A stretch of 64,000 nt of DNA from a virus. Under the pieces are notes generated by a model. That model saw only the letters and a program-made list of their open reading frames with translations. It had not been told where the DNA came from and did no database searches. The DNA lies in the IMG/VR virus record IMGVR_UViG_3300017963_000201, positions 64,001 through 128,000 of that record; one strand, 5' to 3'. The position numbers were made by a program, and so were the translations under genes. Shown piece after piece: positions 4,882-18,794 of the stretch; the stretch's first letter is position 1; each line of letters opens with the position of its first letter.

Positions 4882-5397
4882 CTATTTAGTAAACAACGGT
4901 TCTTTAGCTTTTGGAGGACAAGAGCACATAAGTTTCCAACATTCGGGTGCCTTGAACGCTAGTCCATAATTTTTGTACATGCCCAAGACATAAAGATCGT
5001 CATCGAACGAAACTAAAGATTCTGATGCATAGGGTACGTATGGAAGGATTTTTTGATTAAGAATTCGCTCTTTATGCTCTGTTCCTGTACTTAGCTCACC
5101 ATTGGGGCGCATATAAAGATTAATGTTCTCTTTATGAAGCGGAAAATAATTAGAAATCCATAGCAAGGTTACACTTCTAAGTCTTTCGTTCCGTCCAGTT
5201 ACAAAATGGACAGAGCTAGACTCTACGATTAATTTTGCCACACATTCTACAGAGTATGGCATGGGTGTGTCTCTTAGAACTAAGGTTGGTGATGTAAAGG
5301 TTTTCCAATCTTCTATAGTAGGTTCGTCCTTGTCTACTATGTTTTGTCTGTGAGAAAAATCACTCAAAGTCCCATCAATATCCAGGATGGTAATCAT
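4882..5397 (-). CDS. HAD-family phosphatase resembling the polynucleotide kinase 3'-phosphatase domain
   Basis: DIDGTL motif I, VTGR motif II, LYMRP, K, FDDD motif IV. Confidence 0.8.
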   Translation of the reverse strand: MITILDIDGTLSDFSHRQNIVDKDEPTIEDWKTFTSPTLVLRDTPMPYSVECVAKLIVESSSVHFVTGRNERLRSVTLLWISNYFPLHKENINLYMRPNGELSTGTEHKERILNQKILPYVPYASESLVSFDDDLYVLGMYKNYGLAFKAPECWKLMCSCPPKAKEPLFTK

Positions 5398-5478
5398 TAA
5401 TAAACTTTCTTTTAATGCCCGTCACAGATTTACATGTATTATACCCATACTACAACAAAAAGTTTACCTGAGGTACGT

Positions 5479-6792
5479 ATGCCATACAACCCAAACGAGC
5501 TAAAAAACAAGATAATTGGTAAGGAAATAAACATTGGTATTGTGGGTTTAGGATATGTAGGTTTACCCTTAGCTATTCAGTTTTGTAAGAAGGGATTCAA
5601 TGTTATAGGATTTGACATTGATCCGTATAAAGTGTATTGCCTTAAGCACGGAACAAGTTACCTAAGCCACGTTGATCCAGAATCTTTTATTGAGTACATC
5701 CAAGCAAAAAAGTTTTTTCCTACTAGTTTCTTCAAAAATTTAACATTTTGCACTGTAACAATAGTATGTGTACCAACCCCCCTTACAGCAAATAGAGAAC
5801 CAGACTTAAGTTACATAAAAGCAACCATGGAAAGTATTCAGCCCTATGTTGGAAAATACGTAAACATCGTATCTCTAGAAAGCACGACGTATCCAGGAAC
5901 AACCAACGAGGTAGTAAGACCAATCTTAGAAAAAGAAGCTGCTGTTGGTAAGGATTTTGCTCTGATTTACTCTCCGGAACGTGAGGACCCAGGAAACCCT
6001 TTTTTTAGTATAGGTAATACTCCCAAAGTTGTAGGAGGCCAAACAGAAACATGCGGATTACTTGGTAAGGTACTGTATCAACAAATCGTAGACACTGTAA
6101 TATTAGTAAGTTCTACCAATACCGCAGAGATGGTCAAAATCTTAGAAAATACCTATCGAGCAGTCAATATATCTTTTGTAAATGAACTAAAGATGCTGTG
6201 CCATAAAATGGGCATAGATATTTTTGAAGTCATACGAGCAGCACAAACCAAACCTTTTGGCTTTCAAGCCTTTCGTCCTAGTTGCGGTTTTGGTGGGCAT
6301 TGCATAAAGGAAGATCCGTTTTATCTCACTTGGAAAGCACGGCAATATGACATTAACACAAAGTTTATAGAACTGGCTGGAGAAATAAATTCGTATATGC
6401 CAGAATATGTTTCCAATCGAATTCAAGATGCATTAAATTCTAGAGAAAAAAGTATTAAAAACTCGGTTATATTAATTATTGGGGTTGCGTATAAGCCAAA
6501 TGTCAACGACACCCGAGAAAGCCCTGCTTTTAGAATTATAGATCTGCTACATAAAAAAGGTGGGCATATACTATACCATGATCCTTTTATTCCTATTCTG
6601 CCAGAAACTAGGAAATACAATTTCAAACTTAAATCGCAAGATTTATCTAAGGATTTATTAAATATTGTGGACTGTGTTGTTATAGTAACGGCGCATAAAG
6701 ATATCGATTACAAATTTATCCAAAAATATGCCAAGATCATCGTTGATACCTGCGACACGTTTAGGGATAAAACAAACGTCTACTGCGCATAA
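5479..6792 (+). CDS. UDP-N-acetylhexosamine / nucleotide-sugar 6-dehydrogenase
   Basis: GLGYVG Rossmann motif, CVPTP, LESTTYPGTT, YSPEREDPGN, KILENTYRAVNI, GGHC, AYKPNVNDTRESPA; start placed at ATG after GAGG. Confidence 0.92.
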   Translation: MPYNPNELKNKIIGKEINIGIVGLGYVGLPLAIQFCKKGFNVIGFDIDPYKVYCLKHGTSYLSHVDPESFIEYIQAKKFFPTSFFKNLTFCTVTIVCVPTPLTANREPDLSYIKATMESIQPYVGKYVNIVSLESTTYPGTTNEVVRPILEKEAAVGKDFALIYSPEREDPGNPFFSIGNTPKVVGGQTETCGLLGKVLYQQIVDTVILVSSTNTAEMVKILENTYRAVNISFVNELKMLCHKMGIDIFEVIRAAQTKPFGFQAFRPSCGFGGHCIKEDPFYLTWKARQYDINTKFIELAGEINSYMPEYVSNRIQDALNSREKSIKNSVILIIGVAYKPNVNDTRESPAFRIIDLLHKKGGHILYHDPFIPILPETRKYNFKLKSQDLSKDLLNIVDCVVIVTAHKDIDYKFIQKYAKIIVDTCDTFRDKTNVYCA

Positions 6793-6803
6793 AGGAGACG
6801 GTC

Positions 6804-7196
6804 ATGGAGGACGCAAAAATAATCAATAGTAGTGTTTTTAACTTTGGGCTCATTGGGATTGGTACTACTATCGTGGGTTCCCTAGTTGGTCTTTTGCTCT
6901 TGAACTACTCTTTAGGCTTGCGTATCCAAGACGAGCGTGCTAAACAGGATGAGTTACGTACCCAACTAGCAGATCAACAAAATACAATTTACGACCTAAG
7001 AAGAGCATTGGATAGGACAGAGGGGCGGTTGGGAGTTTACGAGGATTTTTTAATCGGAACACAAGTACATGCACTCAAACGTATGGTGCGGGACTTTTTA
7101 AGGAGCAACAAAGTTAAATCTACAGAAGTAACCTTGCTAGAGTTTGAGCAGTGGGCAAACCAAAAGGTATCTTATCCTGTAGGTATCGGAGGGTAG
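6804..7196 (+). CDS. Membrane-anchored coiled-coil protein
   Basis: N-terminal hydrophobic helix then coiled coil; AAGGAG RBS. Confidence 0.5.
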   Translation: MEDAKIINSSVFNFGLIGIGTTIVGSLVGLLLLNYSLGLRIQDERAKQDELRTQLADQQNTIYDLRRALDRTEGRLGVYEDFLIGTQVHALKRMVRDFLRSNKVKSTEVTLLEFEQWANQKVSYPVGIGG

Positions 7197-7197
7197 C

Positions 7198-8385
7198 TTG
7201 GATTTCTCTATAGCAGATCACACTAGTTATTTAGTGGTTGCAGGATCGCATGCCTATAAGACACACCACCAAGATAGCGACTATGATGTTAGAGGTTGGG
7301 GAATACCCCCACTAAAATACCAATTTGCTTTTGACAAACATTTTGATCAATACGATGCAAAGCATACCTATCGAAATTACCCTTTTAGGGTAGATCTAAA
7401 TTCGTATATTAAATCTCATAACCTTAGGCCACTTCCAGAAGACGAAATGATAGATCAAACTGTTTACTCAATTTCTAAATTTTTCAAGCTGGCATCAGAT
7501 TGCAACCCTAATGTGATTGAGTTATTATTTGTTGACGATACAGATATATTAATCTGTGATCCCTATGCCACAGAAGTTAAAAAACACCGAGACTTATTTT
7601 TGTCTGCCCGCGCCAAATTTAGCTATTTAGGGTATGCAATCAGTCAACTGAAGCGTATTAAAACTCATCGGAGGTGGTTACTTAATCCACCTAAAGAAAA
7701 ACCCACTAGGACTAAATACGAGCTTCCAGAGCAATCTTTAATACCACCAGAGCAACGAGGTGCTGCAGAAGCCTTGGTAAAAGCAAAAGTACGGGAATGG
7801 ACCTTACAAGATGCCGATCTTTTTTCAAAGACTGAATTAAATATGGTCCATGTAAATCACCTATCAGAGTTTGTAGGGTATCTAATAGACCGTAAAACGG
7901 ATATACAAGAAATGCTTACAGCAGCTCGCATAGCTGCAATGCACTACTACGGACTGTCAAAAAATATGATCGAAGTTTTACAAGCTGAAAAATCATATAA
8001 GGCGGCATTAATAGAATGGAACCAATACAAGAATTGGAAAGAAACCAGAAATCCTTATAGAGCTGGATTAGAAAGGGACTATGGCTATGATTTAAAACAC
8101 GCCATGCACCTTGTTAGACTAATTTTTCAAGGCGAAGAATTACTCACTAGAGGAAAAATTACAGTAAGGTGTAATCACATTCCAGAGATCGAAGAAGTAA
8201 AAGAAGGTAAGTGGAGCTACGAAAAATTAATTTATTTTGTAGAGACTAAAGAAAAAGAATTTAATATTTTGTATAATGACAAGAAGTACGTCGTACCAAA
8301 GAAGCCGAATATAAAGGCTCTGAGTAAGCTAAATACGGATCTATTAAAGAGGTATTACCATGAGAAAATTTTTCTACGACACTGA
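7198..8385 (+). CDS. Pol-beta family nucleotidyltransferase (RlaP-like)
   Basis: GSHAY...DSDYDVRG catalytic motif, CNPNVIELL, GYD-KHAMHLVRL. Confidence 0.85.
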   Translation: MDFSIADHTSYLVVAGSHAYKTHHQDSDYDVRGWGIPPLKYQFAFDKHFDQYDAKHTYRNYPFRVDLNSYIKSHNLRPLPEDEMIDQTVYSISKFFKLASDCNPNVIELLFVDDTDILICDPYATEVKKHRDLFLSARAKFSYLGYAISQLKRIKTHRRWLLNPPKEKPTRTKYELPEQSLIPPEQRGAAEALVKAKVREWTLQDADLFSKTELNMVHVNHLSEFVGYLIDRKTDIQEMLTAARIAAMHYYGLSKNMIEVLQAEKSYKAALIEWNQYKNWKETRNPYRAGLERDYGYDLKHAMHLVRLIFQGEELLTRGKITVRCNHIPEIEEVKEGKWSYEKLIYFVETKEKEFNILYNDKKYVVPKKPNIKALSKLNTDLLKRYYHEKIFLRH

Positions 8386-8866
8386 ATTCATAGAATACCC
8401 TAGCCACATTGATCTAATATCCATAGCGCTTGTATCTGAGTCCGGGGGGTTTTTTTACGCAGTCAATAATGAGTGTGACTTTAGTAAAGCAAATCCGTGG
8501 GTCAAGGAAAACATAATTGACCATCTAGAGCCCCAGTCAGATCCTTCCTGGATGACAAGGGAAAAAATAAAAAGTGATCTGTTAAACTACTTAAAACCTG
8601 AGATAGAAGATCCTGTTCAGCTCTGGGGATATTACGCAGATTACGATCATGTAGCTTTGTGTTGGCTATTTGGGCCTATGATTAATTTACCAAAAGGTAT
8701 GCCCATGTATACCTTGGACCTAAAGCAATTGGCTTATCACCTTGGTAATCCACCATTACCGACACAGGATCTCCCAGAGCACAACGCAAAGCACGATGCC
8801 CTATGGAATCGAAGAGTTTATTTTTACCTAAAGCAGATAGCCAAACAAAAAAATATTGAGGTTTGA
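8360..8866 (+). CDS. DEDDh 3'-5' exoribonuclease (Rv2179c / RNase AS-like)
   Basis: FYDTEFIE, LISIALV, WGYYADYDHV, EHNAKHDA. Confidence 0.88.
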   Translation: MRKFFYDTEFIEYPSHIDLISIALVSESGGFFYAVNNECDFSKANPWVKENIIDHLEPQSDPSWMTREKIKSDLLNYLKPEIEDPVQLWGYYADYDHVALCWLFGPMINLPKGMPMYTLDLKQLAYHLGNPPLPTQDLPEHNAKHDALWNRRVYFYLKQIAKQKNIEV

Positions 8867-9073
8867 TGTGCAAGAAGCATTGATGGTTATGTTAGTTGTA
8901 TTGGGTATAATCGGTTTGGTACTACTTAGTAGATCGATAATATATGGTAGACTGCTTTGCCAAGGAAAAATTAGTAGCTATAGTTACACAAAAGTAAAAA
9001 CAAGAGAAGCAACAAATTTTATCTATGGGATCATGTTTTTAATTGCATCCATATCCTTATTTATTGTCCTCCC

Positions 9074-9379
9074 ATGAAAAAAGAAGTTACTGATAAAGAC
9101 CTAGCGAAGATGTACAATTGGGGTGCTGCCCTTAGACTGTTACGTAAAATGACTGGATTAGGTCTTATAAAGTTCGGTTACGAAGTTGGTTATTTCAACG
9201 GACAAATATGCAATTGGGAAAACAATAAAATGTTACCCGATCTTAGAACGCTATATCGCTATTGTTTTGCCCTTAATGTCCCTTTATCGTTCATTGCCTA
9301 TCTAGCAGAGAATGAAAACGTAAGGGATCAAATTAATAAAGGACTCTCCTATTACAAGCGAGGATTCCATGTCGTATGA
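9074..9379 (+). CDS. XRE/Cro-like HTH protein
   Basis: GAALRLLRK...ICNWENNKMLPDLRTL...ALNV. Confidence 0.75.
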   Translation: MKKEVTDKDLAKMYNWGAALRLLRKMTGLGLIKFGYEVGYFNGQICNWENNKMLPDLRTLYRYCFALNVPLSFIAYLAENENVRDQINKGLSYYKRGFHVV

Positions 9380-9554
9380 TGACGAAACAGTAGAAATCGA
9401 AATAGTGAATAAAGTACATGAAACCGATCATGCTGTCTTGTTCAATATCGAAGGTGATGAATTTTGGATTCCCAAGTCAGTAATTGATGATATGGACGAA
9501 TGCATGGTTGTGGTGCAAAAATGGTTTGCAAAAAAGGAAGGATTTATCGAATGA
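9369..9554 (+). CDS. Small conserved phage protein
   Basis: HETDHAVL...WIPKSVI...WFAKKEG pattern common in phages. Confidence 0.6.
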   Translation: MSYDDETVEIEIVNKVHETDHAVLFNIEGDEFWIPKSVIDDMDECMVVVQKWFAKKEGFIE

Positions 9555-10096
9555 AAATTAGAAGTTTTCTATCGTATAGTTCCTATGTAATAAAGCACAA
9601 ATGGTATGTTTTTTTAGAGTGCTGTAAACGAGGTATACCTATTCGTGGGTTGCTTCATGATTGGCATAAATTTTTACCTGACGAGTTTATCCCCTATATG
9701 AACTACTTTGGTCCTAAAGGGATTCAAAGAGGTAGAAATAAAACTGGCTACTATAAGCCAAACGATACAGGGGATAGTGCTTTTGACCGAGCTTTTTTTC
9801 TACATCAAAAACGCGGAAGCCACCATTGGCAATACTGGGTGATGCCTCTTTCTAAAGAAGAAAACACAGAAGGTATGCGGATTTTTGAGATGCCACCTAA
9901 AGCGAGATTAGAAATGCTATGCGATTTTTACGGGGCAAGCCGTGCCCAAAAAAGTACAGGAACAGTGCGTGATTGGTATTTACAAAATGGTAGTAAGTTA
10001 GTTTTGCATCCAAATACTAGGCAATGGTTAGAAGATAAGCTAAACATTAATACGGGAGAAGAAAATGTGCGACCTATTCGTGTTCAAAAATCCTGA
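9551..10096 (+). CDS. HD-like protein (DUF5662-like)
   Basis: KHKWYV, LLHDWHKF, H...HHWQYW, EMLCD; start taken at ATG overlapping the upstream TGA. Confidence 0.65.
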   Translation: MKIRSFLSYSSYVIKHKWYVFLECCKRGIPIRGLLHDWHKFLPDEFIPYMNYFGPKGIQRGRNKTGYYKPNDTGDSAFDRAFFLHQKRGSHHWQYWVMPLSKEENTEGMRIFEMPPKARLEMLCDFYGASRAQKSTGTVRDWYLQNGSKLVLHPNTRQWLEDKLNINTGEENVRPIRVQKS

Positions 10097-10442
10097 CGGT
10101 ATGGTAGTATTTGCTGTAAGACTAGCAAATAATAAATTAATGACGGCAGCAGCTTGCTGCAATCCTCTTGATTTAAATACCCCAAAAAGGATAAGGACAA
10201 AACGAGCAATAGCTATCGCTACTAACAGACTGAAGAGATACCGTCTGGCTTTAATAATCCCACCACAGTTAGATCTTAATAAACCAATTTCTGAACAAAG
10301 AAAAATTGTTTGGGATTATCTAAGAGAGCATTTGTTAAGATATAAACAACATAATATGGGGTTACGAAGATATCAAGGAGATCCAGAAAAAAGCGAATTC
10401 CATAAATGGTTGGGGAAATTCGTAAAACACTATGAGAGGTAG
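10065..10442 (+). CDS. Hypothetical protein
   Basis: ORF with GGAG RBS in a tightly packed operon. Confidence 0.55.
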   Translation: MCDLFVFKNPDGMVVFAVRLANNKLMTAAACCNPLDLNTPKRIRTKRAIAIATNRLKRYRLALIIPPQLDLNKPISEQRKIVWDYLREHLLRYKQHNMGLRRYQGDPEKSEFHKWLGKFVKHYER

Positions 10443-10444
10443 GT

Positions 10445-11053
10445 ATGTTTATTGTCATCGAGGGTATTGACGGATCTGGAACGACTACACAAACAAAGCT
10501 ATTAGCAAGTTACATCAATAAGCAAAAAGGTCAAGTAGCGATTGAAACAAAAGAGCCCACAGAACAAACTGTTGGAAGATTAATCAGAGAGATCCTAAGA
10601 AACAAATGGATTAAGATTAATGAATTGAGTATGGCCTTATTGTTTGCTGCAGATCGACTGGATCATATGGAACGTATGGAGCAACATTTGGATAGAGGAC
10701 TGCATATCGTATGTGATCGCTACCTCCATTCTTCTTTATGCTATCAGGGAACCCAGGAAACTTTAGACTTTGTTGCAGCAATAAACGCAAAAGCAAAAAT
10801 ACCTGACGTGACGTATATTTTAGAAATTGATCCAAAGATAGCCCATGAAAGAATCCTCTCTCGGGGCGAACAAGAACAACGATATGATGCTATAGAAAAG
10901 CAAAAACAAATAGCAGACAACTACGATAAAGTATTAAGATCTATGTTTGATGCTAATAAGTTAGTATATCTTCAAGGGGACCGCCCAAAAGATCAGGTAC
11001 ACAAGGACATAGTAAATGATTTTAATAAAAGGATAGGTAATGGTAAAGTTTAG
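10445..11053 (+). CDS. tmk: Thymidylate kinase
   Basis: FIVIEGIDGSGTTTQ P-loop, KEPT, LLFAADR, CDRYLHSSLCYQG. Confidence 0.93.
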   Translation: MFIVIEGIDGSGTTTQTKLLASYINKQKGQVAIETKEPTEQTVGRLIREILRNKWIKINELSMALLFAADRLDHMERMEQHLDRGLHIVCDRYLHSSLCYQGTQETLDFVAAINAKAKIPDVTYILEIDPKIAHERILSRGEQEQRYDAIEKQKQIADNYDKVLRSMFDANKLVYLQGDRPKDQVHKDIVNDFNKRIGNGKV

Positions 11054-11463: not shown

Positions 11464-11491
11464 TTGACGTACCCAAAAACTTTTGTATTAT
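11464..11491 (+). promoter_or_regulatory. Sigma70-type promoter for the ncRNA cluster
   Basis: TTGACG-N16-TATTAT with AT-rich upstream sequence. Confidence 0.7.
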
Positions 11492-11600: not shown

Positions 11601-11657
11601 TTAATGTGCCCTTGTTCCGGTAACGCTAGGCACGGGACCCTAACAAGGGTAGCCTTT

Positions 11658-11794
11658 GGGCAAATGCTGTATGGCACTCCATAGCTTATATAAGTTCGAA
11701 TCTTATTATACCCTTCGGGGTATATAGCCTAACTGGTAAGGCAGCTTCTTATAAAGAAGCCAAGCGAAAATGTGCCACACAATACTTGTTGCCC
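11658..11794 (+). ncRNA. Y-RNA-like element Y1 with permuted tRNA (anticodon loop UUAUAAA)
   Basis: GGGCAA-ATGC-TGTATGGCAC / GTGCCACACA-ATACTTG-TTGCCC stem encloses T arm (ATAAG TTCGAAT CTTAT), acceptor stem closed by UUCG, D arm and anticodon arm. Confidence 0.8.
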
Positions 11795-11809
11795 TTTATT
11801 AGTCAGATT

Positions 11810-11883
11810 TCTTGCTGAATGCAGTTTATGATTACATTTTTGTGTAAAAAAATCAGATCACAAACTAATCCTTGTCAGCAAGA
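11810..11883 (+). ncRNA. Minimal Y-RNA-like element Y3 (no tRNA domain)
   Basis: TCTTGCTGA-ATGC-AGTTTATGAT ... ATCACAAACT-AATCCTTG-TCAGCAAGA; same internal loop as Y1, Y2, Y4. Confidence 0.72.
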
Positions 11884-11892
11884 TTAATCCTT

Positions 11893-12123
11893 GGGGATCT
11901 AAATGCGCGTCAGGATTACATTGCACTTAACTGTTAATTAAGAGGTTGTTGGTTCGAGTCCAACCTGGCCCATCTCCGCTAGTGGGGGTAGGAATCCATG
12001 TCATAGGTTTACAGTCCCTCCCGTATGCTTGTGGCTTCCGCTCTTTTCTTACCCTCACTTTTATGGGCCAGTAGCTCAATTGGTAGAGATAATATGGTCT
12101 TGGCAAATACTTGTTAGATTCCC
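11893..12123 (+). ncRNA. Y-RNA-like element Y2 with permuted tRNA (GUU anticodon) and nested hairpin
   Basis: GGGGATCTAA-ATGC ... AAATACTTG-TTAGATTCCC; anticodon arm 11926-11942, T arm 11948-11964, acceptor strands 11965-11971 and 12065-12071, D arm 12074-12088. Confidence 0.82.
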
Positions 12124-12135
12124 TTTTTATTATAA

Positions 12136-12210
12136 AATAACTGCATAAGAACGTACACTAACTTAATAAAAATTTTCGATGCACGCCTGCTCTACTCTTA
12201 TGCAGTTATT
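12136..12210 (+). ncRNA. Hairpin cassette H3 (15-bp stem, 45-nt loop)
   Basis: AATAACTGCATAAGA ... TCTTATGCAGTTATT perfect inverted repeat. Confidence 0.55.
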
Positions 12211-12217
12211 ATTTTTT

Positions 12218-12274
12218 GGGGCATTCAGTTTTGTTTAAATATTTGGGGCAATAAAAATATTTCCTGAGTGCCTC
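12218..12274 (+). ncRNA. Hairpin cassette H4
   Basis: GGGGCATTCAG ... CTGAGTGCCTC; the GU pairs favour the + strand. Confidence 0.45.
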
Positions 12275-12530: not shown

Positions 12531-12603
12531 GGGGCACTAGCCTAACGGATAAGGCATCGGCCTTCTAAGCCGACCAATCGGGGTTCGATTCCTCGGTGTC
12601 CCG
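12531..12603 (+). tRNA. tRNA-Arg(UCU)
   Basis: Full cloverleaf GGGGCAC/GTGTCCC, anticodon arm TCGGC CTTCTAA GCCGA, T loop TTCGATT; CCA not encoded. Confidence 0.93.
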
Positions 12604-12614
12604 TAGGAGATGCT

Positions 12615-12800
12615 ATGAATGATAAGGAAATCGTTGCGGAGCTAAGAAGAATTGGATCTGATGTTTTGAATAAACTTTGGAAAGCTCACCATGATTATCA
12701 TTTCAAAACCATAGATGCCCAAGAGTTTATCAAAATATTTAAACAAGCTGTAGCTAAGTTTAATGAAGCAAATACTATCATAGAAAGAGAAAGACATTAG
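12615..12800 (+). CDS. Small hypothetical protein within tRNA cluster
   Basis: AGGAG RBS, 61 aa, fills the gap between two tRNAs. Confidence 0.55.
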   Translation: MNDKEIVAELRRIGSDVLNKLWKAHHDYHFKTIDAQEFIKIFKQAVAKFNEANTIIERERH

Positions 12801-12883
12801 GCTGCTGTGACGGAATGGTATACGTATCAGACTTAAAATCTGATGCCCAGATGGGATTGAGGGTTCGAGTCCCCCCAGCAGCA
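12801..12883 (+). tRNA. tRNA-Leu(UAA)
   Basis: GCTGCTG/CAGCAGC acceptor, TCAGA CTTAAAA TCTGA, long variable arm, discriminator A. Confidence 0.92.
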
Positions 12884-12886
12884 TAC

Positions 12887-12970
12887 GGATCGGTGCCCGA
12901 GCTGGTCAAAGGGGACGGGCTGTAAACCCGTTGTCATGTGGCTACGATGGTTCGAATCCATCCCGATCCA
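12887..12970 (+). tRNA. tRNA-Tyr(GUA)
   Basis: GGATCGG/CCGATCC acceptor, ACGGG CTGTAAA CCCGT, long (bacterial-type) variable arm. Confidence 0.93.
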
Positions 12971-12980
12971 TATATAAGTC

Positions 12981-13118
12981 TTACTCCGAATGCAGTAAGA
13001 GATTACATTGCTCTTCGAAAGCCGTGGTTGCGGGTTCAAGTCCCGCTCCCCCGATTTCGGGGGATAGCTCAATTGGTAGAGCACGTAAAATAATCTCTTG
13101 CAACCCTTGTCGGAGTAA
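12981..13118 (+). ncRNA. Y-RNA-like element Y4 with permuted tRNA (UCG anticodon)
   Basis: TTACTCCGA-ATGC-A-GTAAGAGATTA ... TAATCTCTTGC-AACCCTTG-TCGGAGTAA encloses anticodon loop, T arm, acceptor stem closed by ATTT, and D arm. Confidence 0.85.
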
Positions 13119-13133
13119 ATTTTTGGAGGTTTT

Positions 13134-13908: not shown

Positions 13909-13971
13909 GGCAGCGGTAGTGTACTAATCTTTCCCAAAACAGTGTCAAATGTGTCCATGCCTATCGCTGCC
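13909..13971 (+). ncRNA. Hairpin cassette H6 immediately upstream of the Ro60 RBS
   Basis: GGCAGCGGTAG ... CTATCGCTGCC, 41-nt loop. Confidence 0.45.
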
Positions 13972-13999
13972 ATTGTCCTCACAGAAAGGGGAATGCATT

Positions 14000-15553
14000 A
14001 TGAATAAACAAGTCTTCAAAACGACTAGAGGGAAAATACCCGAAAGGGCTAATACCTACAATAAGGCAGGAGGTAAAGCTTATACGAGATCCCCAGAGGC
14101 ATCTTTAGTACAGATGGCTTTGACAGGAACTTTCTATAATACGTTCTATTGCTCCGGTAGAGCACAACTGAACGAAACGATAGATTTGTGCAAAAAGGTA
14201 GATCCTAGATTCGTAGCACAGACAGCTATCTACGCAAGAAGCAAAGGGCTCATGAAAGATATGCCTATGTTTCTTTGTGCTCATTTAGCAAAAGAAGATC
14301 CTAAACTTTTGGAGCTGATCTTTCCACAGGTAATGAGCAATGGGATAGTCCTCAAGAAGTTTGTACACATGCTTAGGTCTGGGGTTGTCGGGCGTAAAAG
14401 TATGGGGACCACGATCAAAAGAGCTGTTACTAATTGGATCCAGAATCGATCTTACCATGGGTTGTTCCGAGACGCTATCGGTGGGGATGTCACGATTGCA
14501 GACATAATAAAAATGGTTCACCCCAGACCTCAAGATAAATCAAGAGAAGCGTTCTATGCTTATTTGATCGGTAAGAAATATAATCATGAATCACTGCCTA
14601 CTATTGTAAAAGAATATGAGGCTTTCAAAAAAGGAGAAACCAAAGAAGTACCCAATGTAGAGTTTCGTTACTTAACTTCTCTGAAACTGGGTAAAACCGA
14701 ATGGACCCAAATTGCCTTGAACGCCCCTTGGCATATGTGTCGAATGAACTTGAATACCTTTGATCGCCATGGGGTATTCAAGGATAAAAAAGTGACAAAA
14801 AGAATTGCCGACAAAATCAGGGACCGCGAATCAATAAGAAAGGTTGGCGTATTCCCCTACCAACTTTTGGCAGCATACAAAGCAGAGAAGGATTTGCCAC
14901 GAGAGATCATTGAGTCTCTGCACGATGCAATGGAAATCGCAACCAAGAATGTGCCCACTGTTGAAGGGAAAGTTGTATTGTGCCCGGACGTATCAGGTTC
15001 TATGCAAAGCTATAGCGTTACAGGGTCAAAAAATTCTAGTATAAAGCCGTTAGACGTTGCCGCTTTAGTTACAGCCGTGGTATTGAGAAATAACCCAGAC
15101 GCTTTGGTTTTACCCTTCGATACAGGATTACACAATATAAGACTCGAACCTAGAGATACGGTTATGACTAATGCAAACAAACTAGGGAGAATTTATGGTG
15201 GAGGTACCTCAGTAAGTGTACCCATGCGGTATCTTATAGACAAAAGGATCAAAGCCGATGTCATTATCTACATAAGCGACAACGAGTCTTGGGCAGATCC
15301 TTATCACCGAAGTACTGCTTTAGAAGGGTACTGGCAACAATTCAAATCAAAGAATAGAAACGCTAAACTTATTTGTATCGACACTTATGTAGAGAAAAAC
15401 GTACAGGCTAAAGATGCTCCAGATGTATTAAACATTGGTGGTTTTTCAGACAACGTTTTTACGCTAATAAATCTTTTTCTTAATGGAAGCATTGGTACTG
15501 AGGGTATCGTAAGCGAAGTCAAAAAAATTAACATGGGAGAGCGTGATGCCTAA
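14000..15553 (+). CDS. rsr: Ro60 / TROVE-vWA RNA-binding protein
   Basis: NKAGGKAY, TGTFYNTFY, AIYARSKGLMKDMP, RMNLNTFDRHGVF, FPYQLL, vWA MIDAS DVSGSM, GGGT, SDNESW, IGGFSD; start at ATG 14000 after AAAGGGG. Confidence 0.93.
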   Translation: MNKQVFKTTRGKIPERANTYNKAGGKAYTRSPEASLVQMALTGTFYNTFYCSGRAQLNETIDLCKKVDPRFVAQTAIYARSKGLMKDMPMFLCAHLAKEDPKLLELIFPQVMSNGIVLKKFVHMLRSGVVGRKSMGTTIKRAVTNWIQNRSYHGLFRDAIGGDVTIADIIKMVHPRPQDKSREAFYAYLIGKKYNHESLPTIVKEYEAFKKGETKEVPNVEFRYLTSLKLGKTEWTQIALNAPWHMCRMNLNTFDRHGVFKDKKVTKRIADKIRDRESIRKVGVFPYQLLAAYKAEKDLPREIIESLHDAMEIATKNVPTVEGKVVLCPDVSGSMQSYSVTGSKNSSIKPLDVAALVTAVVLRNNPDALVLPFDTGLHNIRLEPRDTVMTNANKLGRIYGGGTSVSVPMRYLIDKRIKADVIIYISDNESWADPYHRSTALEGYWQQFKSKNRNAKLICIDTYVEKNVQAKDAPDVLNIGGFSDNVFTLINLFLNGSIGTEGIVSEVKKINMGERDA

Positions 15554-16304
15554 ACTTCATGAATTATTGGCAGTAGAGTCAGATCTAAAAAATCAATTTG
15601 ATAAGATCTTGCAAGAGACTATTGTTACATTCACCAAAAAGCAAGATCATTTTATGGGCGTGCATAAGACTCTAAAAATGATCGATGATAATCGGGCTCA
15701 TGAGGAAGAAGCAGCTACTCAGTACAAAGAGCTTGATGATACCGTAGACGGTAAATTGGACTATACTTGGAAGTATGTTTCCAAGTATATTAATGCGATT
15801 CATCAGAAGGAAAGTACAAACCAAACTGCTAAAGCAGACCTGGTTGTGGAAGGTAAGGTTTTAGCCAAAGACCTTCCTGCCACTTTACTTTTGAGCATGG
15901 AATCGAAGCTAAAGTTTCTTCGTGGGGTCTACGAAAAGATACCCACGCTACAACCCGGAGTAAAGTGGGTACCAGATCCACAAAGAGGTAAAGGTGTGTT
16001 TCAGGCAGAGCCTCCAGAGATGACCCATAAAACGGAGAAGGATCTGAAATCGAAAACTCTGTTTGAGGGTAATAAAGAACACCCACCACAAATTGAAAAG
16101 TGGATGGAATCTTTCGTTGTGGGTACCTACACAAAAGATATGTGGTCTGGTATGTATTCTCCAGCCAAGAAGTCTGAGGTTTTGGGTAGATTGGATACCC
16201 TGATTCAAAGCATCAAAAAAGCCCGTATGCGTGCAAACGATACAGAGGTTTTGAAGACCGAAGTTAATCTTGCGGGTGCGTTGTATAGCTATTTGACAAA
16301 GTGA
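15546..16304 (+). CDS. Conserved uncharacterised protein overlapping the Ro60 3' end
   Basis: MPKLHELLAVE..., NQTAKADLVVEG...LPATLLL.MESKL, EHPPQIEKW, SGMYSPAKK...IKKARMRAN; I recall a similar uncharacterised bacterial/phage family (unverified). Confidence 0.75.
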   Translation: MPKLHELLAVESDLKNQFDKILQETIVTFTKKQDHFMGVHKTLKMIDDNRAHEEEAATQYKELDDTVDGKLDYTWKYVSKYINAIHQKESTNQTAKADLVVEGKVLAKDLPATLLLSMESKLKFLRGVYEKIPTLQPGVKWVPDPQRGKGVFQAEPPEMTHKTEKDLKSKTLFEGNKEHPPQIEKWMESFVVGTYTKDMWSGMYSPAKKSEVLGRLDTLIQSIKKARMRANDTEVLKTEVNLAGALYSYLTK

Positions 16305-16625
16305 ACAAGCTTTGGGCCAGCATCATAATTAGTCTCTGTTGTTAATTTTGTCCTTGGTGTTTTGCCCACAGCTTTAAACCTAAAGACGGATCAATTACTG
16401 GGCATGAATAAAAACCGCGTGCAGTGCGGGTTCAAGTCCCGTTCCGACCACCATATGGTCGGATAGTTCAATGGTAGAACGCATGCTTGATCAGATTCTA
16501 AATCGTGTGCCAGGAAAGATTCGGTACAGGGGGCTCGCTGGATGCCCTGTATCCCAGCACTTGGGTGGGATTGCTGTTGTGAAAAATGGTGATTTTTTAT
16601 AGCGGGCAATCCCATCTCTTTTTAT
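16305..16625 (+). ncRNA. Structured RNA containing a permuted tRNA-like module (16417-16486)
   Basis: GCGTG-CAGT-GCGGG TTCAAGT CCCGT-TCCGACC-ACCA-TAT-GGTCGGA-TA-GTTC AATGGTA GAAC-G-CATGC; outer boundaries approximate. Confidence 0.7.
16563..16624 (+). terminator. Long-hairpin intrinsic terminator
   Basis: GGGTGGGATTGC ... GCAATCCCATCT followed by T6. Confidence 0.65.
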
Positions 16626-17892: not shown

Positions 17893-18213
17893 ATGGGATT
17901 TGGAGATCAAAAGTTAATAGAAGAACAAAAAAGATTAGCCAAAATAGAAAAAGCAGAAAAAGAACATAAGCCCGTATTATATAAAGTTGTGGGTGAGAGG
18001 CAAGTGTCGGTCAAGACAGAATTAACTATTAAAGCCAGATCGGAAGAGGAAGCTGAAGATTTGTTTTTCAAAGAAATTAAAAACTACGATTTAAATCAAT
18101 TTGATTATTGCCCTGGAAATGAGGACATCGAAATTGAATCGATTGAAGCTTTACAAGCCATAGAAGAACCAGATGATAAAACGCTAAATCTTTTTAATAC
18201 AAAATCCTCATGA
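17893..18213 (+). CDS. Hypothetical protein
   Basis: GAGGA RBS; IKARSEEEAEDL motif common in small phage proteins. Confidence 0.55.
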   Translation: MGFGDQKLIEEQKRLAKIEKAEKEHKPVLYKVVGERQVSVKTELTIKARSEEEAEDLFFKEIKNYDLNQFDYCPGNEDIEIESIEALQAIEEPDDKTLNLFNTKSS

Positions 18214-18794
18214 TATTTTTTACGGCTGATACGCACTTTAACCATACAAATATTTTAAAGTTATGTATGCGTCCTTATTACTGTATCAAGGAAATGAACG
18301 AGGATATAATTGAAAGGTGGAATACCACAGTAACAACAAATGATATTGTTTTTCATTTGGGTGACTTTAGCTTTTCAGACCCAAGACCCTTTTTAGCTCG
18401 ATTAAATGGGCAAATTATTATTATAAAAGGTAACCACGACAACAGATCTGTACGTAAAAAGTTTAATATATATTCACACCAAATGCGCATGAGGATTGGC
18501 AACTTTTTTTGTTTATTAAATCACCGACCCCTATACTCAGGGACTAATAAAGATCACCACGATCCAAAAGAAGAAATAGCTTATCCAGCAAGATACGATT
18601 TTATAATTTCCGGCCACGTTCACGAGAAATGGCTCTGGACGGGCCGATCTTTAAATGTAGGGGTTGATCAACACGAATTTACGCCTCTGAGTTACCCCCT
18701 TGTCCTAAACTTACTTTATGCTCGTAAAGAGCACCTTATGACTAAACATGCTACATCGTGGGATAAAATTAAACAAAAAAACTTAGACGAATAG
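18210..18794 (+). CDS. Calcineurin-like metallophosphoesterase
   Basis: DTHFNH, HLGDF, GNHD, H-P, GHVH, NVGVD. Confidence 0.92.
   Translation: MIFFTADTHFNHTNILKLCMRPYYCIKEMNEDIIERWNTTVTTNDIVFHLGDFSFSDPRPFLARLNGQIIIIKGNHDNRSVRKKFNIYSHQMRMRIGNFFCLLNHRPLYSGTNKDHHDPKEEIAYPARYDFIISGHVHEKWLWTGRSLNVGVDQHEFTPLSYPLVLNLLYARKEHLMTKHATSWDKIKQKNLDE

What the first reader, a model, noticed from the sequence alone, without database searches (positions are those of the whole stretch)
11893..12123. Y2: permuted GUU-anticodon tRNA with a 79-nt hairpin nested in the acceptor loop
Seen: joining 12065-12088 (GGGCCAG TA GCTC AATTGGTA GAG) to 11924-11972 (C A CTTAA CTGTTAA TTAAG AGGTT GTTGG TTCGAGT CCAAC CTGGCCC A) gives a complete cloverleaf, with the missing D-stem C supplied by the other half. 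The 92 nt between the acceptor strands hold a 14-bp hairpin (11981-12059). Known: tRNA-Asn normally has G73, and this RNA has A73. Inference: RNase P and 3'-end processing of the tRNA-like fold could release the nested hairpin as a separate small RNA, making this an RNA within an RNA.
Basis: partly seen in the sequence, partly recalled or inferred. Interest (0 to 1): 0.78.

Follow-up and report, generated by a model that had tools for sequence, protein, structure and literature searches.

The report
Phage Y RNA with tRNA-Asn body
This 231-base stretch is a phage small-RNA gene of the known YrlA (Y RNA) kind, the partner RNA of the phage's Ro60 protein. Its middle is a complete, rewired copy of an asparagine tRNA with an unusually long hairpin plugged into the end where an amino acid would normally attach.

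Summary
Joining 12065-12088 to 11924-11972 gives a sequence that ARAGORN calls tRNA-Asn(GTT). A stable hairpin (z -4.5) fills the 92-93 nt between the acceptor strands. It is not a tRNA gene. It is the third of four Y RNAs lying 1.8 kb upstream of a phage Ro60 gene. It has the YrlA order (T arm, closed acceptor stem, D arm) and the shared closing stem with AAUGC/CUUGU loop. A model built from 23 other phage YrlAs finds it at E 1e-6.

The "anticodon arm" corresponds to the published "V arm". About half of 33 phage YrlA modules carry a 5-bp, 7-nt-loop anticodon mimic, and CUGUUAA is the commonest loop. What is unusual here is the uninterrupted anticodon stem and the insert: other acceptor loops span 3-38 nt. 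A co-occurring relative has the same arms but a plain 7-bp acceptor hairpin.

Release of the hairpin by RNase P and 3' trimming has precedent (M. smegmatis YrlA; encoded NCCA in 6 of 47 modules) but is untested, because no RNA data exist.

Verdict: a new variant of a known kind. This scan has noted YrlA-like permuted tRNA mimics on many other genomes.

The parts
11893..11902 (+). 5' strand of the closing stem (GGGGAUCUAA); pairs with 12114-12123
   Evidence: 10-bp stem in the MFE and centroid folds. Same position as the closing stems of the neighbouring Y RNAs.
11903..11908 (+). 5' side of the internal loop with the shared AAUGC motif; presumed Ro60 docking site
   Evidence: AAUGC follows the closing stem in Y1, the small Y, Y2 and Y3 and in 23 phage YrlAs. 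It corresponds to the end of the published GNCGAAN0-1G motif (PMC4201824). Y2 reads UCUAAAUG, so the CG of that motif is not kept.
11909..11923 (+). 5' strands of the upper Y stem (GUCAGGAUUA, C, AUUG), including the conserved YUAY (UUAC, 11916-11919)
   Evidence: Pairs with 12090-12104 in the MFE. GGAUUACA aligns with the consensus of model R1. In run X4 a variant carries G12103A, which turns the U11910-G12103 wobble into U-A.
11924..11925 (+). C and A that take tRNA positions 25 and 26 in the rejoined cloverleaf
   Evidence: ARAGORN pairs this C with G12074. Locally the D stem closes with a G-A mismatch at 12074/12089.
11926..11942 (+). Anticodon-arm mimic CUUAA-CUGUUAA-UUAAG (5 bp, 7-nt loop, GUU, U33, A37, A38); equivalent to the YrlA 'V arm'
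   Evidence: The same CUGUUAA loop sits on stems of different sequence in at least 10 other phage YrlAs.
11943..11947 (+). Variable loop AGGUU; U48 can pair with A15 (Levitt pair)
   Evidence: Positions 15:48 are A:U in 22 and G:C in 17 of 47 modules. Y2 has A:U.
11948..11964 (+). T arm GUUGG-UUCGAGU-CCAAC
11965..11972 (+). Acceptor 3' strand CUGGCCC plus A at the discriminator position (73)
   Evidence: 7-bp pairing with 12065-12071. No CCA follows; UCU does.
11973..12064 (+). 92-nt insert in the acceptor loop: 14-bp helix 11981-11994/12046-12059 carrying an inner hairpin 12000-12035
   Evidence: z -4.53. Unique in the 145-kb record. No Rfam match. Kept at 1 change in 92 nt in a contig from another study. 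Absent from a co-occurring relative (table 5c).
12065..12073 (+). Acceptor 5' strand GGGCCAG plus U8 A9; U12064 is at position -1
12074..12088 (+). D arm GCUC-AAUUGGUA-GAG
   Evidence: Separate weak R1 hit at 12075-12088.
12089..12113 (+). 3' strands of the upper Y stem (UAAU, UGGUCUUGGC) and the 3' side of the internal loop AAAUACUUG
   Evidence: The CUUGU motif is shared by all four Y RNAs of the array.
12114..12123 (+). 3' strand of the closing stem (UUAGAUUCCC)
11464..11491 (+). Promoter-like site TTGACG-16-TATTAT upstream of Y1, the small Y and Y2
   Evidence: 10 of 12 consensus matches. A consensus match only.
11657..11798 (+). Y1: sister YrlA-like RNA with a UUCG-capped acceptor stem and the anticodon-like hairpin 3' of the D arm
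   Evidence: Rfam YrlA 40.7 bits. R1 45 bits. The rejoined form is called tRNA(ata).
11810..11883 (+). Small Y RNA with the Ro-type stem and loop but no tRNA-like domain
   Evidence: z -3.67. R1 hits its 5' motif at 16.1 bits.
12981..13119 (+). Y3: sister YrlA-like RNA whose anticodon stem (UCG loop) is split by the Ro stem
   Evidence: Rfam YrlA 60.7 bits. The rejoined form is called tRNA-Arg(tcg).
13949..15553 (+). Ro60/Rsr (TROVE + vWA) gene, the presumed protein partner
   Evidence: Pfam vWA_Ro60 4e-23 and a weak TROVE match. Homologues named 60 kDa SS-A/Ro at E 1e-165.

Best explanation
Y2 (11893-12123, + strand) is a phage-encoded Y RNA of the YrlA type, not a decoding tRNA gene.

Its 5' and 3' ends pair into a closing stem with the internal loop AAAUGC / ACUUGUU. 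All four Y RNAs of this array share that loop, and it is the presumed docking site for the phage Ro60 protein encoded 1.8 kb downstream on the same strand.

The rest of the RNA is the effector module: a complete class-I tRNA-Asn look-alike wired in circularly permuted order. The order is anticodon arm, variable loop, T arm, acceptor 3' strand, insert, acceptor 5' strand, D arm. The Ro stem leaves the cloverleaf between the D stem and the anticodon stem. The acceptor stem is closed by a 92-93-nt insert that folds into a long hairpin.

Shown here: the anatomy, the family membership, the recurrence of anticodon-arm mimics in phage YrlAs, and that the long insert is exceptional.

Inferred: the RNA tethers or gates Ro60 and shows a tRNA-Asn-shaped body, anticodon loop included, to a tRNA-recognising factor. 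The setting is phage RNA repair or counter-defence. I rate the following steps at about 40%: the 7-bp acceptor helix is opened by host RNase P after U12064 and by 3' trimming after A11972, as in M. smegmatis YrlA. That would give a two-piece Y RNA and free the hairpin, most likely as a by-product.
For: Context:
- Ro60 gene on the same strand within 2 kb.
- Two flanking RNAs match Rfam YrlA at 40.7 and 60.7 bits.

Family membership:
- A covariance model built from 23 other phage YrlAs, with Y2 left out, finds 11901-12003 at 34.3 bits, E 1e-6.
- T arm, 7-bp closed acceptor stem, D arm, the UA linker, YUAY and the A15:U48 Levitt pair are all present.
- The tRNA-like fold is isoenergetic with the MFE.

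The anticodon mimic is general:
- 16 of 33 modules from unbiased Ro60 loci have a 5-bp stem and a 7-nt loop with U33 and R37 (14 of them as closed hairpins), against 1.6% of control placements.
- Loop position 38 is A in 19 of 24, although this was not required.
- CUGUUAA recurs on stems of different sequence.
- Mycobacteriophage Catera's known YrlA has the same design with a UGC loop.

Processing:
- M. smegmatis YrlA with a 7-bp stem is cut by RNase P and gains CCA (PMC4201824).
- NCCA is encoded just after the acceptor 3' strand in 6 of 47 modules, where about 0.7 would be expected. Two of these are among the five other modules with acceptor loops of 26-38 nt.
- U is at -1 in 23 of 47 modules.

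Conservation:
- A contig from another study keeps the insert with 1 change in 92 nt, and its G12103A change improves a predicted pair.

Function setting:
- PNK-type phosphatase, RlaP nucleotidyltransferase, a 3'-5' exoribonuclease and a metallophosphoesterase flank the array.
- A phage Ro60-like protein counters a defence system in Bas63 (10.1101/2024.10.10.617714).
Against: - Rfam's own YrlA model does not report Y2 even at E up to 5, presumably because of the insert.
- The published GNCGAAN0-1G motif is degraded to UCUAAAUG, so Ro60 binding is an inference from the sister RNAs.
- Only near-identical copies of Y2 were found (99.94% and about 97%). The Y stems and the insert therefore have almost no covariation support of their own.
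- Against cleavage: no CCA is encoded, the record holds no CCA-adding enzyme, and A11972-U12064 and U11973-A12063 can extend the acceptor helix to 9 bp.
- The local D stem closes with a G-A mismatch. The exact junction geometry (branch at 24/25 or at 26/27) is unresolved.
Confidence: 0.78

Rival explanations
1. Y2 is a precursor from which RNase P and RNase Z-type trimming release the 79-92-nt hairpin as a separate small RNA with its own function (an RNA within an RNA). A two-piece tRNA-like Y RNA is left behind.
For: - The hairpin is unusually stable (z -4.53).
- It is conserved at 1 change in 92 nt in a second study's contig.
- The 7-bp acceptor plus 5-bp T stem, U at -1 and G at +1 fit RNase P substrates.
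- M. smegmatis YrlA is cut at this site (PMC4201824).
- Two other YrlAs with nested hairpins (L082, L183) encode UCCA right after the acceptor strand.
- L082's nested hairpin shares GGGGGUAG/UACCCUC with Y2's.
Against: - No RNA data.
- The insert has no copy elsewhere in the genome and no Rfam family.
- Two pattern scans of 2.9 million viral contigs found no further true case.
- Its best antisense match in the genome is 12 nt, and 126 of 300 shuffles reach that length.
- A relative does without the insert, so it is dispensable for the Y RNA design.
Confidence: 0.15
2. Y2 is a true permuted tRNA gene, as in Cyanidioschyzon or Thermofilum. The ends are ligated, the Y stem is removed and the acceptor loop is opened, yielding a decoding tRNA-Asn that the phage otherwise lacks.
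For: - The rejoined sequence is a flawless cloverleaf with all standard tertiary partners.
- The phage record has only three tRNAs and no tRNA-Asn.
Against: - The junction is not a bulge-helix-bulge motif: a 4-bp AUUG/UAAU helix is flanked by 1-2-nt mismatches.
- No RtcB is detectable in the record, and only a sub-threshold RNA-ligase-like match. Bacteria are not known to have the splicing endonuclease this route needs (10.1101/312249, discussion).
- A73 instead of the G73 expected of tRNA-Asn.
- The closing stem carries the Y RNA loop shared with RNAs that have no tRNA part.
- The same design recurs with never-used or redundant anticodons such as AUA in Y1.
Confidence: 0.03
3. The two halves are unrelated leftovers: a tRNA-Asn 3' fragment such as a phage attachment site, or the T arm of one tRNA gene and the D arm of the next (a dimeric-tRNA false positive).
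For: - Rfam's tRNA model hits only the 3' part.
- Tandem isoacceptor tRNA genes in other phage loci (L023, L028, L071) do mimic long 'acceptor loops' in a naive scan.
Against: - ARAGORN calls no tRNA on either side.
- Neither half has its own partner strand, yet the two are perfectly complementary over 7 bp.
- The whole is enclosed by a 10-bp closing stem with the Y RNA motifs.
- No tyrosine integrase in the record.
- Relatives keep the same arms around a plain acceptor hairpin.
Confidence: 0.02

Closest known systems
YrlA (Y RNA-like A; Rfam RF02553; Chen et al. 2014, PMC4201824; structure in Wang et al. 2018, 10.1101/312249)
   Same: - Encoded next to Ro60/Rsr on the same strand.
- Closing stem formed by the 5' and 3' ends, with the Ro-type motif.
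- Conserved YUAY.
- T arm, then a closed acceptor-like stem, then the D arm.
- tRNA tertiary partners, including the covarying 15:48 pair.
- A further stem-loop ('V') upstream of the T arm.
- Occurs in phages and in arrays with tRNAs.
   Different: - Acceptor loop of 93 nt, against 3-38 nt in 46 other phage modules.
- The stem-loop upstream of the T arm is a full, uninterrupted 5-bp, 7-nt-loop tRNA-Asn anticodon arm. The papers I could read describe a variable arm there and say that S. [quoted passage not shown] - The CG of the GNCGAA motif is replaced.
- Not reported by the Rfam model.
M. smegmatis YrlA (processed, two-piece form; PMC4201824 section 8)
   Same: A 7-bp acceptor stem closed by a loop. 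That RNA is cleaved by RNase P at the tRNA +1 site in vitro and in vivo, and its 5' half gains CCA. This is the precedent for opening Y2's acceptor loop.
   Different: There a short loop is opened and nothing sizeable is released. Y2 would release a structured piece of about 92 nt. Processing of Y2 is untested.
Circularly permuted tRNA genes of Cyanidioschyzon merolae, some green algae and Thermofilum (cited in 10.1101/312249)
   Same: The 3' half lies upstream of the 5' half, and the acceptor stem is initially closed by a loop that RNase P and RNase Z open.
   Different: Those precursors carry a bulge-helix-bulge junction, are circularised by splicing enzymes and become decoding tRNAs. Y2 has a Y RNA stem instead, no such motif, and sits in a phage of bacteria.
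Phage tRNAs that counter tRNA-cleaving defence (T5 tRNA-Lys/Thr/Asn against PARIS AriB; PMC12409363, PMC11464382)
   Same: - A phage-encoded RNA that shows a tRNA-Asn(GUU) anticodon stem-loop, including the U36-A-A-U39 sequence noted near AriB cleavage sites.
- Lys(UUU) and Thr(UGU) loops also occur among phage YrlAs.
   Different: Those are ordinary decoding tRNAs. Whether any Y RNA is cut by, or inhibits, an anticodon nuclease is unknown. This is an analogy, not a test.

Membership tests
YrlA-type Y RNA | Encoded within about 4 kb of a Ro60/TROVE gene on the same strand | tested here: met
   Y2 ends at 12123. Ro60 runs 13949-15553 on the + strand.
YrlA-type Y RNA | Conserved T stem-loop followed by an acceptor-like stem-loop and then a conserved D stem-loop | tested here: met
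   GUUGG-UUCGAGU-CCAAC; a 7-bp CUGGCCC/GGGCCAG stem; UA; GCUC-AAUUGGUA-GAG. The D stem has only 3 local pairs.
YrlA-type Y RNA | 5' and 3' ends pair into a stem carrying the GNCGAAN0-1G motif | tested here: inconclusive
   A 10-bp closing stem plus AAAUGC/ACUUGUU is shared with the sister RNAs. The motif itself reads UCUAAAUG, and the CG is replaced by UA with a matching change on the opposite strand.
YrlA-type Y RNA | Conserved YUAY and a fourth ('V') stem-loop upstream of the T arm | tested here: met
   UUAC at 11916-11919; hairpin at 11926-11942.
YrlA-type Y RNA | Match to a family covariance model | tested here: inconclusive
   Rfam RF02553 gives no hit at E up to 5. Custom model R1, built from 23 phage YrlAs without Y2, gives 34.3 bits, E 1e-6 over the 5' two-thirds, with the D arm found separately. 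The 93-nt insert breaks a full-length match.
YrlA-type Y RNA | Bound by Ro60/Rsr | not testable with these tools
   Needs pull-down or gel shift.
Decoding tRNA-Asn | Contiguous cloverleaf with free 5' and 3' ends | tested here: not met
   ARAGORN calls nothing in the native order. It calls a tRNA only after in-silico rejoining.
Decoding tRNA-Asn | GUU anticodon plus G73 discriminator (identity set, from general knowledge of E. coli tRNA-Asn) | tested here: not met
   GUU is present. Position 73 is A11972.
Permuted tRNA genes (algal/archaeal type) | Bulge-helix-bulge motif at the junction of the precursor ends, and splicing endonuclease/ligase | tested here: not met
   The junction is a 4-bp helix flanked by 1-2-nt mismatches. 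No RtcB in the record. The record is only 79% complete.
Two-piece (permuted) tmRNA | tRNA-Ala-like acceptor/T domain plus a tag reading frame; detected by ARAGORN | tested here: not met
   ARAGORN with tmRNA search finds none in the window or the genome. Y2 has D and anticodon arms that tmRNA lacks.

The most novel reading that the evidence does not exclude
Phage Y RNAs are not generic tRNA-elbow mimics. They are full, isoacceptor-specific tRNA bodies, with Asn(GUU) the commonest and Lys(UUU), Thr(UGU), Pro(UGG) and Arg also present, tethered to Ro60. They would act as decoys, sensors or repair substrates for host anticodon-loop nucleases of the PARIS/PrrC/colicin kind. RNase P would open many of them into two-piece, CCA-tailed molecules. 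In Y2 that opening would also release a 92-nt hairpin, possibly a vestigial nested Y module, as a second RNA.
Probability: 0.15. Interest if true: 0.8.

Novelty: new variant of a known kind. Interest (0 to 1): 0.5.

Why it matters
What the tRNA-like domain of YrlA binds has been open since 2014. The published view is that conserved D and T stems at the elbow are the interaction site, and that S. Typhimurium YrlA has no anticodon loop.

Y2 is the cleanest example of a different picture: a phage Y RNA that keeps every tRNA element, including a tRNA-Asn anticodon stem-loop. My survey shows that about half of phage YrlA modules do the same, usually with the Ro stem branching out of the anticodon helix. 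This makes a concrete hypothesis testable: the partner may read the anticodon arm. Candidates are a modification enzyme, a synthetase-like factor or a defence nuclease.

The 93-nt acceptor insert, together with encoded CCA in sister RNAs, also gives a handle on whether Y RNAs are routinely opened by RNase P.

The family itself, its permuted wiring and its link to Ro60 are already in print, so this refines a known system and does not add a new kind.

Tried and rejected
- **RNA evidence.** No RNA holder is listed among the public runs for this stretch, so expression and RNA ends could not be examined.
- **Orthologues for covariation.** The Ro60 protein look-up gave only a 99.94%-identical contig. 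The phage GenBank collection holds nothing similar beyond tRNAs. A single-protein scan of viral contigs gave one distant locus.
- **Insert as a repeat or mobile element.** No second copy in the genome.
- **Insert as a known RNA family.** Nothing in Rfam.
- **Insert as an antisense guide.** The 12-nt complement to genome position 44159, noted by another first-stage note, is within chance: 126 of 300 shuffles have a match of 12 nt or more.
- **Insert motif shared with L082 (GGGGGUAG...UACCCUC).** Two pattern scans of viral contigs returned only L082's own contig and three coding-sequence chance hits.
- **Insert as a nested Y module.** The motif order AUG(U)C..GGUUUACA..CUUGU is enriched: 4 of the 6 genome matches lie in the Y array, against 0.85 expected per shuffled genome. 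But I wrote the pattern after seeing the insert, and the Y-like fold is 7-11 kcal/mol worse than the MFE. I keep it only as a possibility.
- **Long 'acceptor loops' in L023, L028 and L071.** These turned out to be tandem isoacceptor tRNA genes.
- **attP reading.** No integrase in the record.
- **Phage-encoded ligase or CCA-adding enzyme.** None found in the 79%-complete record.
- **MAFFT alignment of the insert with the small Y RNA.** Uninformative.

Full report
**What is there.** The window is part of a 145-kb IMG/VR virus record, estimated 79% complete. ARAGORN finds only three ordinary tRNAs nearby: Arg-tct, Leu-taa and Tyr-gta at 12531-12970. There is none elsewhere in the record and no tRNA-Asn. 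Rfam's tRNA model hits only 11907-11972, at 35.1 bits.

When 12065-12088 is joined in silico to 11924-11972, ARAGORN calls a canonical tRNA-Asn(gtt). It has a 7-bp acceptor stem, a 4-bp D stem whose last pair uses C11924, a 5-bp anticodon stem, the loop CUGUUAA, the variable loop AGGUU and a standard T arm. The 92 nt between A11972 and G12065 fold into a long hairpin with a 14-bp helix (11981-11994/12046-12059). Its energy is -31.4 kcal/mol, z -4.53.

**What it is.** A permissive Rfam scan finds YrlA (bacterial Y RNA-like, RF02553) on either side: 11657-11798 at 40.7 bits and 12983-13119 at 60.7 bits. The 534-aa ORF at 13949-15553 is a Ro60 orthologue. It matches Pfam vWA_Ro60 at 4e-23 and has homologues named 60 kDa SS-A/Ro at E 1e-165.

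Published YrlA RNAs have four defining traits (PMC4201824):
- They lie within about 4 kb of Ro60 on the same strand.
- They close their ends into a stem with a Ro-type motif.
- They carry, in this order, a 'V' stem-loop, a T arm, a closed acceptor-like stem and a D arm.
- The structure paper calls them circularly permuted tRNAs with closed acceptor stems (10.1101/312249).

Y2 has all of this:
- A 10-bp closing stem (11893-11902/12114-12123).
- The loop AAAUGC / ACUUGUU, shared with Y1, a 74-nt tRNA-less Y RNA at 11810-11883, and Y3.
- A second stem ending in the conserved YUAY (UUAC, 11916-11919).
- The tRNA-like core.

I built a covariance model from 23 other phage YrlAs, leaving Y2 out. It finds 11901-12003 at 34.3 bits, E 1e-6, and the D arm separately. 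The 93-nt insertion explains why no full-length match, and no Rfam YrlA hit, is obtained. A hand-built structure with every tRNA arm formed costs -77.5 kcal/mol against an MFE of -77.7.

**The 'anticodon arm' is a general feature, seen here in its most complete form.** I fetched 80 phage loci through an alignment of Ro60 proteins. I then scanned them for modules of T arm, closed acceptor stem and D arm that ARAGORN does not call as tRNAs.

- Of 33 unique modules from this unbiased set, 24 can form a 5-bp stem with a 7-nt loop exactly where a tRNA has its anticodon arm, if the first 0-4 nucleotides of the stem may come from the strand that follows the D arm. Shifted control placements do so in 22 of 264 cases.
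- Requiring U33 and a purine at 37 leaves 16 of the 33. The matching control is 6 of 376, computed over all 47 modules. Fourteen of the 16 are closed hairpins.
- Position 38, which I did not constrain, is A in 19 of 24.
- After rejoining, ARAGORN of 35 such modules as tRNAs.

The Ro stem therefore branches out of the 5' strand of the anticodon helix at varying positions. In Y2 the whole stem is uninterrupted. CUGUUAA is the commonest loop. A pattern scan of viral contigs found it in at least ten more YrlA-type RNAs, on stems of different sequence: UUCA/UGAA, UCUA/UAGA, UCAGA/UCUGA, UCGU/ACGA, UUCCA/UGGAG, CCA/UGG and UGCA/UGCG. That is covariation around a fixed loop.

The Levitt pair 15:48 is A:U in 22 and G:C in 17 of 47 modules, and Y2 has A:U. 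Mycobacteriophage Catera's long-known YrlA has the same design, with CUCUC-AUUGCAA-GAGAG split after two pairs. The feature is therefore present in published RNAs, where it is labelled the V (variable) arm. The papers I could read do not describe it as an anticodon mimic, and one states that S. [quoted passage not shown] Y2's is 93 nt.

- Several of the longer loops hold a nested hairpin: L082, L183, L160, L003 and also Catera.
- L082's nested hairpin shares GGGGGUAG/UACCCUC with Y2's, but two viral-contig scans found no further true case.
- The insert has no second copy in the genome and no Rfam match.
- Its 12-nt antisense match is within chance.
- Contigs of public runs add two points. A soil-metagenome contig from another study covers 11968-12190 at about 97%, with only A11998G inside the insert and G12103A turning a predicted U-G pair into U-A. 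In two runs that also hold this phage, 431-nt contigs join 11965 to 12071 through 21 other letters, CGCCGCG-TTCGCGA-TGCGGCG. That is a relative with matching anticodon, T and D arms but a plain 7-bp acceptor hairpin.

The long hairpin is thus a lineage-specific addition to an otherwise standard design.

**Is the acceptor loop opened?** M. smegmatis YrlA, the one studied YrlA with a 7-bp acceptor stem, is cut by RNase P in vitro and in vivo, and its upstream half acquires CCA (PMC4201824, section 8).

In favour of opening:
- Six of 47 modules encode NCCA immediately after the acceptor 3' strand, where about 0.7 would be expected. These include L082 and L183, which have nested hairpins, and the module at 16426 in this window.
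- U is at -1 in 23 of 47 modules and A at -2 in 24.
- Y2 has the 7-bp stem, U at -1 and G at +1.

Against opening:
- Y2 encodes no CCA.
- Its -1 and -2 nucleotides can pair with 73 and 74.
- The record holds no CCA-adding enzyme and no RtcB.

No RNA run holds the stretch. I put opening at about 40%, and an independent role for the released hairpin at about 15%.

**Function.** Transcription probably starts at a good sigma-70-like site at 11464-11491. The array sits among genes for a PNK-type phosphatase, an RlaP nucleotidyltransferase, a 3'-5' exoribonuclease and a metallophosphoesterase.

In bacteria Ro60 and Y RNAs work with exoribonucleases and sit in RNA-repair operons. A phage Ro60 binds phage Y RNAs and host PNPase (PMC12135203). 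A Ro60-like protein of phage Bas63 counters the Ppl defence system (10.1101/2024.10.10.617714).

The PARIS nuclease AriB cuts tRNA-Lys(UUU), Thr(UGU) and Asn(GUU) near a UAAU sequence, and phage T5 tRNAs of these three kinds neutralise it (PMC12409363). Y2 carries U36-A-A-U39, and Lys, Thr and Asn loops all occur among phage YrlAs. A decoy, sensor or repair-substrate role for the anticodon mimic is therefore a reasonable hypothesis, but nothing here tests it.

**Rivals.**
- A true permuted tRNA gene is unlikely. There is no bulge-helix-bulge junction and no ligase, position 73 is A, and the closing stem is a Y RNA stem.
- Leftover tRNA fragments or an attachment site are excluded by the enclosing stem, the perfect acceptor complementarity, the lack of an integrase and the relatives.

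**Verdict.** This is a real, well-formed member of a known RNA family, with two unusual traits: a complete uninterrupted tRNA-Asn anticodon arm and a 93-nt structured acceptor insert. It is a new variant of a known kind. This scan has already noted YrlA-like permuted tRNA mimics on many other genomes.

Noticed in passing
window 16392-16486: A further module of T arm, closed acceptor stem and D arm lies just downstream of the DUF7873 gene (15543-16304) that follows Ro60. Its acceptor loop reads ACCAUAU, that is, a discriminator plus an encoded CCA. Rfam YrlA 30.7 bits; custom model 48.1 bits.
   Followed up: partly
L049:6915-7017, L106:5-120 (- strand): Two phage YrlA-type RNAs combine a GUU anticodon mimic with G73 followed by an encoded CCA in the acceptor loop. 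If opened by RNase P they would carry the full tRNA-Asn identity set.
   Followed up: partly
L211:3330-3480 (Mycobacterium phage Catera): The known YrlA of a Bxz1-type mycobacteriophage has a split 5-bp anticodon stem with the loop AUUGCAA (UGC, Ala) and a small nested hairpin in its acceptor loop. The GenBank record annotates nothing there.
   Followed up: partly
window 12124-12225: Directly after Y2 lies a stem of about 17 bp (AAAAUAACUGCAUAAGA / UCUUAUGCAGUUAUUAUUUU) around a loop of about 45 nt, followed by a U run. It may be a terminator or another small RNA. Four of the seven differences in the variant contig fall here.
   Followed up: no
window 11973-12064: The insert carries, in the order of a Y RNA module, GGAAUCC-AUGUC-AUA-GGUUUACA ... 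CUUG-U-GGCUUCC. It may be a vestige of a Y RNA duplicated into the acceptor loop. The corresponding fold is 7-11 kcal/mol worse than the MFE.
   Followed up: partly
L003:6840-7900: A 224-kb phage has at least five Y RNA-like elements interleaved with tRNA genes downstream of its Ro60 gene. All share GGRUUACA. One (7398-7512) has a 17-nt acceptor loop with a nested hairpin.
   Followed up: partly
window 4882-11053 and 18210-18794: The Y RNA/tRNA array is flanked by genes for a PNK-type HAD phosphatase, UDP-glucose dehydrogenase, an RlaP nucleotidyltransferase, an Rv2179c-like 3'-5' exoribonuclease, DUF5662, thymidylate kinase and a metallophosphoesterase. This looks like an RNA end-healing and turnover neighbourhood.
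   Followed up: partly
window 11925-11965 and 12071-12088 (contigs of runs X1-X3): Several short contigs from the same metagenomes match only the anticodon/T-arm part or the D arm of Y2, at 88-92%, and continue into other sequence. Some continue into short acceptor hairpins. Related Asn-type Y RNAs from other phages therefore co-occur in these samples.
   Followed up: partly
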